From Azolla caroliniana (Eukaryota > Plantae > Polypodiophyta): 64,000 bases of DNA. How positions within the stretch are numbered: the stretch's first letter is position 1; every line of letters begins with the position of its first letter. The notes beneath the pieces are model-generated. The model saw only the letters and a list, made by a program, of their open reading frames with translations, did no database searches and was not told the DNA's origin. Positions 4,440 through 57,758 of this stretch are shown piece after piece. Location of the stretch: positions 5,456,001 through 5,520,000 of the forward strand of contig JBHGNT010000018.1 in NCBI GenBank assembly GCA_043228905.1, read 5' to 3'. The position numbers and the translations under genes are program-made.

Positions 4440-4848
4440 GATTCATCAAAAATTACACTTCAACTAAAAATGAATTTATTTCATGTCTCATCATAGAGTT
4501 CGTAAGCTTTATATCCATGAGCGTGACCGTGTCTGACAAAGATTGTTTTGTTTGCCAAAGCATCTAGTTTGTTTCTGTTCTTCTTATGCACATGTGTAAG
4601 GTAGAATATCCACAAAAAAATTATTTTAATTGTGACTTTGTTACACGCCGTAATTCACATGCTATCGTTAATCCCATTGACCAATGATAAACTCGTATTT
4701 GTTGATAACATGTTGTCAAGACAACTTCATCCCAGAATTAGGTATATTGACGACTTGGAGCATACCTCAAGGGGCATTGAGGGGACTTCTATTTTTTCAT
4801 TCAGATACTCTATTTTGTTGTGGAGTGTGAGGTGTGGAAATTCCACGG
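4440..4848 (-). pseudogene. Old Copia integrase relic, part left of the Gypsy insertion
   Basis: Minus strand PHTPQQN..KNRS, KLD..IFV..HGYKAY.LYD..F.FS.SVIFDE; similar to the element at 375-1700. Confidence 0.8.
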
Positions 4849-5326
4849 TGTCGAAAAGAAAACCGTCCCTAGGCGGAAACCGAGTTCAGCATGTGTAAAC
4901 CGGCCCTTACACGCGAGCACACTTTTCGTTGTATGGTAAGTAGGTAGGTACAAGTCGGATGAGGTGAAATCCTAGGTAGCGCGCATTTAATAGGGAGAGA
5001 ATCGAGTTGTATCTCTGTTCGAAAGGATAGAGAATTAATATGATGTAACGGATGATAACAGCCTCCCTCCTTGGGCTATAAAAGAGAGGGAGAGGAAGGA
5101 GAGAGGGGATCACGCGTTAGAGAGGAGGAAGTGCTACCGAACTGGGACCGAGCCCTTCTCCTCTGCCACTCTCCATAGCCATTTTTGCGCAGGTTTTCGG
5201 GAGGCTTACTCTGCTCCGTGGAACGCCCGTGTGCTTCCGACAGAGTCTCTATCTCACTCTTCTGTGTGTGTGAGTGAACAGGCGTCGGTGTTCGCCTTGC
5301 TAGCCAGTTAGTTGTAACCGTCTCGG

Positions 5327-5357
<31 letters not shown>

Positions 5358-5561
5358 TTATATACATACGTGTTCATATACTCGGACTTCGAGTCGTCCT
5401 GTTTTGCTGTGTTGTTGGACTGTGATTCCTATGTGCTCCCGTGTCTATGCGTGTGCAAGTGCGTCCGTTGCCTTTCCGCTGTCCTCCTTCTCAGCTATTT
5501 CTCGTTCCAAGACCCTGGTGGTCCCGCCTCGTTCCTCACGCACACGCGTAACAACGCAACA
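4849..5561 (+). repeat. Gypsy 5' LTR (713 bp)
   Basis: TGTCG...GCAACA; direct repeat of 28642-29344; TATA ctataaaa at ~5076; (TA)n at ~5327. Confidence 0.93.
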
Positions 5562-5565
5562 TATT

Positions 5566-5583
5566 TGGTGAACCCGACGTGAA
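5566..5583 (+). promoter_or_regulatory. Primer binding site complementary to tRNA-Trp
   Basis: TGGTGAACCCGACGTGAA is the reverse complement of the plant tRNA-Trp 3' end (..TTCACGTCGGGTTCA-CCA), 4 nt after the LTR. Confidence 0.85.
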
Positions 5584-6755
5584 GAGGCGGCAAAGGAATA
5601 GAAAGATGAGGGGGTCGGATCTCGCGGAAGCCATGGCATCGGTTGTGGATCGGATAGTAAGTACACGCGAAGGCACAGGCGCCCTCGATAGGGCTATTGA
5701 AGCGGTCGTCTGCACGATAGGCCGGTTCAGTGGGAAGGACGCCACGAGCTATTTGGAGGCCTACTGGGCCGAGATGGTAATGAGAGACATTCCGGAAGAA
5801 AGGCGACTGACCGGATTCCCTCGGGTGGCGATGCTGGGCATCCATGTGGAGGTGCTCGAGGTACGGGCTGAGAGCCGAACCTTTGAAGAGTTTGAAGGTC
5901 GGCTCCTTGAAAAACACGGGCTTGATGATGCGCTTCGGCTCTCGAAACGGGACTTCATGGAATGGGTAGAGACCCCCGAAAAGGGGAGAAATGCGTTGGT
6001 GCTCTTCCGGGTGTTTGAAGAACACTTCGCGTGTCTTTCGGCACTCGACCGGACCTTACTTGACACAAGTCGCGTCCTGTTGTTCGTTAAGTCAGTGGAT
6101 GCGAGGGGCCGGGAGCAAGTGGGTCTCCTACTAGAGACAGATGACGGGCTGACGGCCGACGGGGCCGTGGTGAAGAGAGTCTGTGGCCGTTTCGACAAAC
6201 GGTGAGATTGGGTTGATAAAGGGTCAACAGGGGCGGGCTCTGTAGCAGCAAAGAAACTCGATCCAACCCCACCAGCGTGAACGGAAGAGACCCAAGACTA
6301 GCTCGAGACCGAATCGACTTTGACCGGCATGGTCAAAGGTTCATCCGGAGGAGCATCTCTAGAGGAGATGACTAGGATGGTAAAGGACCTCCTGATTGCA
6401 CAGGCACGGAGGGACGGCGGTGAACAGGCCCGTGACCGAAGGCCTCTAGCTGGAAACCAGTGTTTGTGGTGCGACGCGGTCGGCCACGTCCGAAAGGACT
6501 GCGGGGACTTCGCCGAGGCAATGAGAGCCAACGTGGTGTACCTATGGAACGGTCAGGTGCACGCTAGCGAGAGCCAAAGGGCCCTAGACTTGAATCTTGG
6601 ATGAGGGGGTATGAAACGGCTAATGGAAGAAGCGGCGGCTCGCCACGCGGAGACCGTCCACTACTCGGCATCGGTTGGGATCCGTGTCAGAGGTGGTGAG
6701 GCCCGGAAGACGAACGAAGCCGGATTCTGGCCGCTGATGCTGGAAGGCCTCGCCG

Positions 6756-55009: not shown

Positions 55010-55014
55010 TCTAC

Positions 55015-55086
55015 GATACCTAGGAAAGAAGAAGCAGAGAAAACTCCGAGCGAAGAAGGGATGCTGCCAGTAAGCCTATTGAAAGA
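55015..55086 (-). pseudogene. Captured LRR-RLK fragment, 5' part (last LRR)
   Basis: SFNRLTGSIPSSLGVFSASSFLGI, continuing as VDLCGTPL at 43223. Confidence 0.85.
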
Positions 55087-55499
55087 TTATAGGAGCATTA
55101 TGTTGGGGACGAATTCACCGGCTCTGACCTGAACGGTGAGGAATATTATGCAGAGGCAACATCAATACTGGAGCTTGACTATGAAGATTATGGGAGCTCA
55201 AGGAGGATGAGCAGTGCGGGTAGTAGAAGCTGTAGCCGACCTAGGCGACATTCAGGCAGCGACTATGTTCATATGTCTCGGAGAAGACCCGATCTTTTCT
55301 TCCATGGAACTACTTGCATAGATCAGCACACCAATGGCAATCTTGCATAGCGTAACAATTTCTTGCCCCAATCAGAATCTATGCGCACAAAAATCGCTGC
55401 CATGGATCCTCAGATGTACACAGAACGCGGAGGCGGAAGTACTGAGGAGGTAATTATGGAAGGAAAGGATGATGTTTATGATGAGCAGATGAGTTGCAA

Positions 55500-55708
55500 G
55501 AATAAGTACCAGAATACCCTGGAAGAATCCATTAAGTGAAGAAAATTGTGTTTAAAGGGTATTCTGGTAAATAGGGCTTGTAGAGTTCAGTGTATAATTA
55601 CTTTGTAAAGTGTATTTTTTGGACATAGGGGTAGTTTGGTAAATTTGAAATTTCCAAGGGTATTATGGTAAATAGACGAACTTCCAGGGGTATTCTGGTA
55701 CTTTTCCC
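55500..55708 (-). repeat. Pack-MULE right TIR
   Basis: Reverse complement of 41717-41911 with a short insertion. Confidence 0.9.
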
Positions 55709-56394
55709 TATATGTAATGATGTGAATAAGTATGGAGGCCATTGGGTGACTATTGGTGCGTAACCGCTTTGTGTGTTTAGGGCCTGCTTGCCCTTGTGGT
55801 TTAGCCCAATGCACACTCTACAACCTCATGTGTTGCATCCATTCAACCACACTTGCTCTTGGGTTTGGTTCATTCATGTTCTATGTGTTCCGAAACTTAA
55901 TAGCACTTAAACACTTATGTAAAACAGAAAATATGTTGTGCAAGATTTAAAAGAAACCAAGAAAGATACACAACAAATCAATACACAATACACCACCAAG
56001 TTTTAACGTGGAAAACCCTCAAAGAGGTAAAAACCACGGGACCTAGTCTAGAACTAATTCACTATCAATATAAATCTGATACACCAAAGTTCTACTCTAA
56101 ACAAGTTAGAGTACTATGAGCAATCGAGGAATATGATGTTTCCTAAAAAATAAAAACTCAACAAAAAGGAAAGCAAAAACCACTAAAACTCACAACACGT
56201 GGCTGATGACTGAGGCCGCGATGTCCGGATGTTTGAGTGTGTTGGTGTACTTGAGAAAGATTGAAGGAATTAGCTAAGAAAGAGAGTATGGGCTCTCTTG
56301 AATCTATTTTTCTCTGTTGCTACAGAGAAATGCTCATTTTCCCCTTTTTAACACACTAAAAAAGAATGAGTTACATAGTGTAGATATGTAACGT

Positions 56395-57133
56395 TGTCGT
56401 GCCTTTCGGCGCTGGATCGTTGCGTGAGTCGGGTGGGAACCACTGAGGTTTTGGACTAGGAAGAGGAAGAATTTGAAACGATTCTAATTATGAATAGATT
56501 ATTAGAAACTTGTGAATCCCACAAGTATAATGTATTTTATTGATTAATATTTATGTAAGAATATGTATTTAGATTGATAGAGAAAGATATAGAAATCTCG
56601 TGAATCCCACGAGTATAGTTTATTAATTGGTGTTTTAGGAAATATATCCAATTTCCCAAATATTTCACACACACACCCCCATTACATTGTGCTCCCCATC
56701 CTTATGTAGTGATGAGGGAGTCTTAGCAATCCATGCTTTTTCTTCTCTAACTATAGACTCCATGCTTTTCCTATAGATAGACTATATGCTTTATCTAAAG
56801 TGATCATGCTTTTTCTAACTTGTGTTTTATTTATTGACTATAGCGTTCATGCACGCTAGATGTGCATGCGTAGCTTTTTCTTTTAGCATGTGTTTTTCTT
56901 TTAACTAAAGTTTATCCTAGGTGAACTTAGCTTTCTATATGGGACATCTACTTTTTAACACTAATGAAATGTTAGTGTAATGGTAAGGTTTCACATTATT
57001 AACATGGAGGTGCAAGGTTTGAAGCTTGCCCTATGCATTTATTATTTATTTTGACATTTTCTTCTATTTCTTCATATTTACTAAAACGTTACTTTATAAG
57101 TTTTTCATGTAGTGTATGAAATACACTACGACA
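56395..57133 (-). mobile_element. Solo LTR 2 (739 bp), 4-bp TSD ACGT
   Basis: TGTCGTGCC...CTACGACA, inverted homologue of 44609-45556. Confidence 0.9.
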
Positions 57134-57758
57134 ACGTCTTCTTGTATGAACCCCTTTCACACTATTTAAAAAAAATACAAGTTTTGGGCGTCCAAGGCCC
57201 ATTTTATTTACTTATTAATGTGGACATAAAAACCTAACAATCTCCCCTTCTGGCCACATAGGAGAAGATTTCATTGAATCACTTAGTTTTTGTTCATTCC
57301 AGCCAGCTTGACACATAGCTCAAGCTTTTCTTTATAGACTACATTCGTCAACATGTCAGCAACATTTTCATCTGTGTAAATTTTCTTCAGTTGTAGAAGT
57401 TGATCTTCAATTGCCGAGCGCAACCAATGATACCTTACATCAATATGTTTCGTACGAGAATGGTATATCGAGTTCTTGCTTAGATCCATTGCACTTTGGC
57501 TGTCACAAAATATCACATAAGTTAGTTGACTTAAAACCAAATCTGAAACAAACCTTTTCAACCATGGCATCTCTTTGGCAGCTTCCGTGGCTGCAATATA
57601 TTCCACTTCTGTTGTAGACAAAGCAACACATTTTTGCAACTTAGATTGCCATGATACAGCTCGTCCTGCAAATGTAAATAAGTAAGCCGAAGTAGATTTT
57701 CTCCCATCGAGATCCCCTGCCATTATCTGAATCTGAGAAACCTTCAAGAATTTGTTTA

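What the first reader, a model, noticed from the sequence alone, without database searches (positions are those of the whole stretch)
4845..57137. LTR lineage with 4-bp, CpG-centred target sites (ACGG, ACGC, ACGT)
Seen: three independent insertions with TG(T/C)CG..CGACA-type ends are each flanked by a 4-bp duplication: ACGG (4845-4848/29345-29348), ACGC (44605-44608/45557-45560) and ACGT (56391-56394/57134-57137). For the first two, removing the element plus 4 bp restores the host reading frame (SQCTCRGISTPHTPQQN; QTLRDKQF), so the length is 4 and not 5. All six other LTR insertions here with readable flanks have 5-bp TSDs and none starts with ACG. The truncated LTR ending at 7771 also abuts gtgc/gcac, whose likely ancestor is GCGC. 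Known: most plant LTR elements make 5-bp TSDs with weak preference; Drosophila ZAM is a precedent for CG-rich 4-bp targets. Inference: this integrase selects NCGN sites, possibly methylated CpG inside other transposons. Linking the solo LTRs to the Gypsy lineage rests only on termini and TSD type.
Basis: partly seen in the sequence, partly recalled or inferred. Interest (0 to 1): 0.78.

Follow-up and report, generated by a model that had tools for sequence, protein, structure and literature searches.

The report
CG-targeting Gypsy retrotransposon, Phygy type
These jumping genes land almost only on four-base sites with CG in the middle (mostly ACGT), a real and strong preference that is already published for the moss Phygy lineage, to which they likely belong; whether the CG must be methylated is untested.

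Summary
Three insertions carry exact 4-bp duplications (ACGG, ACGC, ACGT), and six other LTR insertions in the window carry 5-bp ones. In 82 metagenome loci of the same two LTR families, 42 of 47 distinct 3' flanks have CG at +2/+3 against a 4% background, and 24 are ACGT. The five exceptions are all TG or CA, as CpG deamination would give. On the 5' side CG sits at -3/-2 in 13 of 19, which fixes the length at 4. The preference is published: Neumann et al. 2019 give Phygy as 4 bp, NCGN, tRNA-Trp primer, and this element fits. RT placement against REXdb could not be run. The integrase has no chromodomain or other reader domain and has an invariant, one-residue-shorter alpha2 segment, so direct sequence readout is likelier than methyl-CpG sensing. 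The LTR ending at 7771 belongs to another lineage.

The parts
4845..4848 (+). Left TSD copy ACGG of element A, inside a decayed copia integrase (minus strand)
4849..5561 (+). 5' LTR of element A (713 bp, TGTCG...GCAACA)
   Evidence: 38 substitutions in 703 aligned bases against the 3' LTR
5566..5583 (+). Primer binding site, tRNA-Trp type
   Evidence: 16 of 18 letters match the Rous sarcoma virus PBS consensus in Rfam RF00467 (E 0.24, below gathering score); RSV primes with tRNA-Trp
5600..6937 (+). gag of element A, with stop codons
6938..7771 (+). Foreign 5'-truncated piece ending in an LTR 3' end of another lineage, between two copies of about 183 bp of gag (6755-6937, 7772-7953); not part of the CG-targeting lineage
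7772..10053 (+). End of gag, protease and first part of RT of element A, broken by stops
10054..15387 (+). Nested young copia element, 5-bp TSD CTCCG (control)
15388..16996 (+). End of RT, RNase H, integrase zinc finger and core of element A (frameshifted), with the ADRGEL alpha2 motif
16997..27999 (+). Nested copia element, 5-bp TSD TTATG, itself holding a copia at 19911-25365 with TSD GAAGA (controls)
28000..28566 (+). Integrase C-terminal part of element A: GPY motif, short acidic tail, no chromodomain
28630..28641 (+). Polypurine tract of element A
   Evidence: similar tract before 3' LTRs in loci L006, L022, L027, L036
28642..29344 (+). 3' LTR of element A (703 bp, TGCCG...CGACA)
29345..29348 (+). 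Right TSD copy ACGG
44605..45560 (+). Solo LTR S1 (44609-45556, 948 bp) with TSD ACGC on both sides, inserted in the RT of a chromovirus-like Gypsy
56391..57137 (-). Solo LTR S2 (56395-57133, 739 bp) with TSD ACGT on both sides; 70% identical to S1

Best explanation
These are two sister families of a non-chromovirus Ty3/Gypsy retrotransposon, likely Phygy, that insert with a 4-bp stagger at NCGN sites (mostly ACGT), and the integrase likely picks the CG by reading the DNA sequence itself at the central step that it is predicted to kink. Shown: 4-bp length, CG at positions 2-3, A and T favoured at positions 1 and 4, no clear preference further out, no chromodomain or extra RNase H, tRNA-Trp-type primer site, solo LTRs from a sister family. 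Inferred from foamy-virus intasomes, the closest solved integrases, which also cut with a 4-bp stagger: the target is bent sharply at the central pyrimidine-purine step, and the two-fold symmetric intasome favours a palindrome. Flexibility alone cannot explain it, because TA, CA and TG steps are not used, so base-specific contacts are inferred. Candidates are the conserved C-terminal beta1-beta2 loop (the place of PFV Arg329) and an alpha2 segment one residue shorter than in PFV and Ty3. After insertion the TSD CpGs are likely methylated with the element and decay to TG or CA.
For: TSDs and controls. 42 of 47 3' flanks CG at +2/+3, background 3.95%, binomial p 1e-53; CG at the other nine offsets 0-7 of 47; ACGT 24 of the 42 against 3% of background NCGN. 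13 of 19 5' flanks CG at -3/-2, 0 of 19 in the 5-bp register. CG is only 16% of background YR steps. All 5 exceptions on the 3' side are TG/CA (p 6e-5). LTR divergence of element A is 33 of 38 C/T or G/A, at CG (15 for 90 sites) and CHG (12 for 55) far more than CHH (6 for 202). Domain order RT-RH-INT with no chromodomain or aRH hit in an intact relative 84% identical in RT; after the last GPY/F motif, 51-91 residues in 53 of 54 relatives with the motif. ADRGEL: D, R, G, E invariant in 59 of 59, one residue shorter than PFV and Ty3. Phygy table: 4 bp NCGN, tRNA-Trp 81%, 186 elements. PFV kink and base contacts.
Against: No named Phygy reference was available, so membership rests on features and not on a tree. 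TatI also has 4-bp TSDs and tRNA-Trp primers, though it carries aRH. Without its nested inserts element A is 8149 bp, or 7132 bp once the foreign piece and duplication are also subtracted, against a Phygy range of 7656-9968. Only 2 of 12 metagenome contigs with genomic DNA on both sides of an LTR have matching 4-mers, both ACGT; the rest are probably chimeric assemblies or recombinants, so they give no per-copy TSD. The integrase model is middling (pLDDT 72, pTM 0.41) and holds no DNA. The PFV alpha2 residue contacts bases outside the duplication, not the centre, so the shortened alpha2 does not by itself explain CG.
Confidence: 0.75

Rival explanations
1. The integrase requires or strongly favours 5-methyl-CpG, so the element is steered into already silenced transposon DNA without a chromodomain.
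For: Two of three window insertions lie in transposon coding sequence. At least 14 of 47 metagenome flanks match transposon proteins with a small library, 17 counting matches to window DNA. Phygy in Tcn1 was the commonest repeated nested pair in P. patens. A reference on a CpG methylation effect on retroviral integration in vitro is listed (title only).
Against: No reader domain. Four of the five 5-bp copia elements here are also nested in transposons, so nesting is not specific. Flank CpG observed/expected is 0.84 overall and spreads from 0.11 to 1.30 in 45 flanks, no clear signal. Drosophila ZAM-group elements prefer CGCG in a genome with next to no CpG methylation (recalled).
Confidence: 0.13
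2. A host or Gag-borne tethering factor that binds CG-containing sites positions an otherwise unspecific integrase.
For: Tethering directs Ty1, Ty3, Ty5, MLV and HIV. The integrase ends in an acidic tail that could bind a partner.
Against: The CG lies exactly between the two cuts in 42 of 47 cases and a bound factor there would block the active sites; no motif is seen at +5 to +12.
Confidence: 0.06
3. The ACG is part of the element end or an artefact of calling the boundary, not a target preference.
For: The A-family LTR has ACAACGC just inside its end, and 34 of 47 flanks start with A.
Against: In 31 matches the same LTR end is followed by internal sequence (the primer site or its spacer), without ACG; 3' LTR starts follow the polypurine tract directly; positions 1 and 4 vary; the host frames are restored by exactly 4 bp.
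Confidence: 0.02

Closest known systems
Phygy clade, non-chromovirus Ty3/Gypsy of Physcomitrella patens (Neumann et al. 2019, PMC6317226; passages, section 9, Additional file 5)
   Same: 4-bp NCGN TSD, tRNA-Trp primer site, no chromodomain, no aRH, no extra ORF, coding sequence filling the internal region.
   Different: Host here not identified and apparently not represented by named proteins. Length at or just under the published range. The text I saw gives NCGN only; here ACGT is half of all sites. Additional file 1, with the per-element TSDs, was too large to read and may show the same skew.
4-bp TSD class in Jedlicka et al. 2019 (PMC6911290; passages)
   Same: 4-bp TSDs with a GC-rich centre and AT-rich edges, common in Phygy; Phygy nested in Tcn1 chromoviruses, as solo LTR S1 sits in a chromovirus-like element here.
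   Different: Their logo pools several lineages.
Drosophila ZAM subgroup of errantiviruses (PMC5408687; passages)
   Same: Palindromic CG-containing target (CGCG).
   Different: CG register differs (CGCG has GC in the centre), insect errantivirus lineage, non-TG/CA termini.
Prototype foamy virus intasome (PMC4422553, PMC4005685; passages)
   Same: Closest solved integrase by sequence and fold; 4-bp stagger with a central YR step.
   Different: PFV has only a weak YR bias; here one YR step (CG) is used almost exclusively, and alpha2 is one residue shorter.
TatI subclade (Neumann 2019, Additional file 5)
   Same: 4-bp TSD, tRNA-Trp primer.
   Different: TatI carries aRH (100%) and has no stated NCGN preference; no aRH is detected here.

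Membership tests
Phygy | RT/RH/INT group with the Phygy references in a phylogeny | not testable with these tools
   REXdb fasta too large to read; no named P. patens protein among hits shown; tree has no reference
Phygy | 4-bp TSD | tested here: met
   3 of 3 in window; CG at +2/+3 and -3/-2 in relatives
Phygy | NCGN target motif | tested here: met
   42 of 47 and 13 of 19; exceptions TG/CA but one TA
Phygy | PBS for tRNA-Trp | tested here: met
   16 of 18 match to RSV tRNA-Trp PBS; the match to the plant tRNA itself is recalled, no tRNA gene was found
Phygy | No chromodomain, no aRH, no extra ORF | tested here: met
   none of the 120 listed RT relatives shows a chromodomain or extra RNase H accession
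Phygy | Length 7656-9968 bp | tested here: inconclusive
   8149 bp without nested copias, 7132 bp without the foreign piece as well; the copy is decayed
Phygy | Host is Physcomitrella patens (as first described) | tested here: inconclusive
   Host gene has only unnamed close relatives; Phygy has since been annotated in a liverwort; RT relatives in Riccia and Adiantum at 61-67%
TatI | Additional archaeal-type RNase H in the polyprotein | tested here: not met
   (intact relative P0121)
Chromovirus (Galadriel, Tcn1) | Chromodomain after integrase; tRNA-Met primer or self-priming | tested here: not met

The most novel reading that the evidence does not exclude
This integrase family, spread over mosses, liverworts and ferns, is a CpG-obligate enzyme whose core and C-terminal loop sense 5-methylcytosine at the kinked step, giving heterochromatin targeting written directly in the DNA, with the invariant shortened alpha2 (DRGEL) as its signature.
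Probability: 0.12. Interest if true: 0.75.

Novelty: new member of a known kind. Interest (0 to 1): 0.22.

Why it matters
The preference is known, but I found no study of its mechanism. Phygy is the one plant LTR lineage reported to recognise a target sequence, and the data here suggest the CG rule is close to absolute at insertion, since all exceptions but one are single-step CpG decay products. That makes intact relatives a clean system for asking how a DDE integrase reads bases at the kink and whether methylation matters. In practice, annotation that demands perfect or 5-bp TSDs will miss older copies, because about one TSD copy in six has decayed (11 of 66).

Tried and rejected
Laying run contigs on the 5' LTR showed a high-copy family but the loose-end table did not list the termini. 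The U5 pattern found nothing in viral contigs. Cluster look-ups gave no named P. patens member. The RT tree (32 rows, 124 columns, outgroup on a very long branch) only shows element A nested among unnamed relatives, apart from Riccia and Adiantum rows; it tests nothing about Phygy. Searches for a tRNA gene matching the primer site found nothing. I first read 6938-7771 as a minus-strand element with a tRNA-Arg-like primer site at about 7317-7333; one search shows instead that 7771 is a plus-strand LTR 3' end followed in other copies by a spacer and a TGGCGAC-type primer site. The majority letters behind 7771 (32 and 29 contigs, agreement 0.38 and 0.46) do not read NCG, but they mix internal and genomic flanks, so that family's target is undetermined. 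Per-copy TSDs from metagenome contigs were rejected as unreliable (10 of 12 mismatched). Earlier findings of the scan held nothing on this.
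Full report
Observation. The window is a plant transposon island beside a lectin receptor kinase gene. Element A spans 4849-29344 with LTRs at 4849-5561 and 28642-29344. Two solo LTRs lie at 44609-45556 (+) and 56395-57133 (-). 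Testing duplication lengths of 2 to 8 bases gives exactly 4 for all three: ACGG, ACGC, ACGT. Removing the element plus 4 bp restores the frame and spacing of the host copia integrase motif and of the host Gypsy RT motif; 3, 5 and 6 bp do not. The six other insertions have 5-bp TSDs: four copias, a fifth copia (46708-52165, GATAT) and the chromovirus-like host of S1 (43224-55009, TCTAC).

Anatomy of element A. A primer site at 5566-5583 matches the Rous sarcoma virus PBS at 16 of 18 letters (weak as a family hit, E 0.24), and RSV primes with tRNA-Trp (PMC7291142, passages). Gag, protease, RT, RNase H and integrase follow, broken by stops, frameshifts and two nested copias. The integrase ends with a GPY motif and a short acidic tail, then the polypurine tract. 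No chromodomain or second RNase H is found in the window's pieces or in an intact relative 84% identical in RT. Length by subtraction is 8149 bp, or 7132 bp without the foreign piece at 6938-7771 and its duplication. The LTRs differ at 38 of 703 positions, 33 of them C/T or G/A, concentrated at CG and CHG, as expected for a methylated plant transposon; the nested copias measured are much younger (1 to 6 differences).

Independent copies. No genome is held. A U5 motif shared by all four LTRs in the window (4 matches, 0 in 100 shuffles), which stops 18-34 bases short of the LTR end and so does not see the flank, found 82 loci in metagenome contigs. The 80 listed come from 12 assemblies with neighbouring accession numbers, probably one campaign and few hosts. 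Their best LTR matches are 75-85% identical to element A and 71-83% to the solo LTRs. Of 84 matches, 31 continue into internal sequence, 3 are cut short, 50 continue into genomic DNA, and 3 of those were dropped as duplicates. Of 47 distinct flanks, 42 have CG at +2/+3 (29 of 30 in the A family, 13 of 17 in the S family) against 3.95% background. CG at the other nine offsets occurs 0 to 7 times. ACGT makes up 24, ACGC 7. The five exceptions are CTGG, GCAT, ACAA, ATGC and GCAC, each one C-to-T or G-to-A step from NCGN. LTR starts were found in 24 rows; after dropping one duplicate and four preceded by the polypurine tract, 13 of 19 have CG at -3/-2, 5 have TG or CA, 1 has TA, and none has CG in the 5-bp register. 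The two registers together fix the duplication at 4 bp. A limit: only 2 of 12 contigs with genomic DNA on both sides of an LTR show matching 4-mers, most likely because short-read assembly joins flanks of different copies, so these loci support the motif and the register but not single-copy TSDs.

The solo LTRs. Five S-family matches continue into the same tRNA-Trp-type site, and two of the four with enough sequence encode gag similar to element A's (L065 E 4e-12, L069 E 5e-23, about 36% identity). S1 and S2 are therefore solo LTRs of a sister family, linked by more than termini and TSD.

The 7771 LTR. In two runs the depth falls at 7771 and the majority continuation is a spacer and a different primer site; it has no match among the 82 loci. 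It is another lineage, and its left junction is replaced by a duplicated stretch of gag. The GCAC/GTGC pair fits a decayed GCGC, but CG makes up 8% of positions in this gag, so it is at most a hint.

Known or not. Neumann et al. 2019 (PMC6317226; passages, section 9 and Additional file 5 read; Additional files 1 and 3 too large) state that Phygy elements, alone among plant lineages, prefer NCGN, and list 186 elements, 4 bp 100%, tRNA-Trp 81%, 7656-9968 bp, no extra domain. Jedlicka et al. 2019 (PMC6911290, passages) report 4-bp TSDs with a GC-rich centre and AT-rich edges, and Phygy nested in Tcn1. Phygy has been annotated in a liverwort (PMC12885004, passages). Named RT relatives here are from Riccia and Adiantum at 61-67%. 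The host is unidentified: its kinase has only unnamed relatives above 36%; a moss is my inference. PMC7466625 (passages) holds neither 'Phygy' nor 'TSD'. All diagnostic features that I could test are met except length (inconclusive); the defining phylogenetic test could not be run.

Mechanism. The closest solved integrases are those of foamy virus and Ty3. For 4-bp staggers the target is kinked at a central pyrimidine-purine step, and PFV contacts bases through Ala188 (alpha2, outside the duplication) and Arg329 (C-terminal beta1-beta2 loop, edges of the site) (PMC4422553, PMC4005685, passages). CG is such a step but only 16% of them in the background, so bendability is not enough and base readout is inferred. 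In 59 aligned integrases the alpha2 segment reads DRGE invariantly, then L in 58, one residue shorter than in PFV and Ty3; two of three Riccia proteins in which the motif was found have it unchanged. The loop between the first two C-terminal strands of the model (residues 365-381) carries a near-invariant Leu-x-x-Gln-His (56, 55 and 53 of 56). These are candidates, not shown contacts. Methyl-CpG sensing is not excluded, but there is no reader domain, flank CpG depletion is unremarkable, nesting is shared with the copias, and ZAM-group elements prefer CGCG (PMC5408687, passages) in a fly genome with little methylation (recalled). Paper searches on NCGN, on Phygy and on methylated CpG with LTR integrase (listings only, apart from the papers named) showed no mechanistic study; most subscription journals and bioRxiv supplements are not covered.

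Verdict. Real, strong and already described as a lineage trait. New here at most: further families in an unidentified host, the ACGT skew, the decay signature, and a candidate integrase signature. Interest 0.22.

Noticed in passing
window 6755-7953: About 183 bp of gag is duplicated around a 5'-truncated piece of another LTR lineage that ends exactly at its LTR end; the copies differ about as much as element A's LTRs (9 of 181). This could be a template switch between two copies of the family, one carrying an insertion.
   Followed up: partly
window 7317-7333: A 17-base stretch that reads on the minus strand like a tRNA-Arg primer site (recalled) lies inside the foreign piece, opposite to the orientation of the LTR end at 7771; unexplained.
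   Followed up: no
window 4749-4885: The left junction of element A is spanned by contigs in runs X1 (0 differences) and X5 (3 differences), labelled as different organisms, so the insertion may predate their split or the labels may be close kin.
   Followed up: no
L073 (minus strand, LTR end near 330): An S-family LTR end is followed by ACGCGACA, the last eight bases of an A-family LTR: possibly an insertion into the terminal CG of a sister element. L053, L035 and L077 are also insertions into elements of the same lineage.
   Followed up: partly
L058 (both strands): An A-family and an S-family LTR end face outwards 1091 bp apart, each flanked by ACGT.
   Followed up: no
window 43224-55009: Chromovirus-like Gypsy with TSD TCTAC whose two LTRs are alike over only 136 bp and whose integrase core appears deleted; it hosts solo LTR S1 and a copia.
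   Followed up: partly
window 46708-52165: Young copia (1 difference in 633 LTR bases) whose LTR 3' end is TA instead of CA in both copies.
   Followed up: no
window 34113-36692: An 859-codon open frame for a G-type lectin S-domain receptor kinase (B-lectin, S-locus glycoprotein, PAN, kinase) inside the transposon island; close relatives are all unnamed.
   Followed up: partly
window 41716-41910 and 55500-55709: Two copies (81% identical, opposite orientation) of a 200-bp element with long inverted ends, MITE-like.
   Followed up: no
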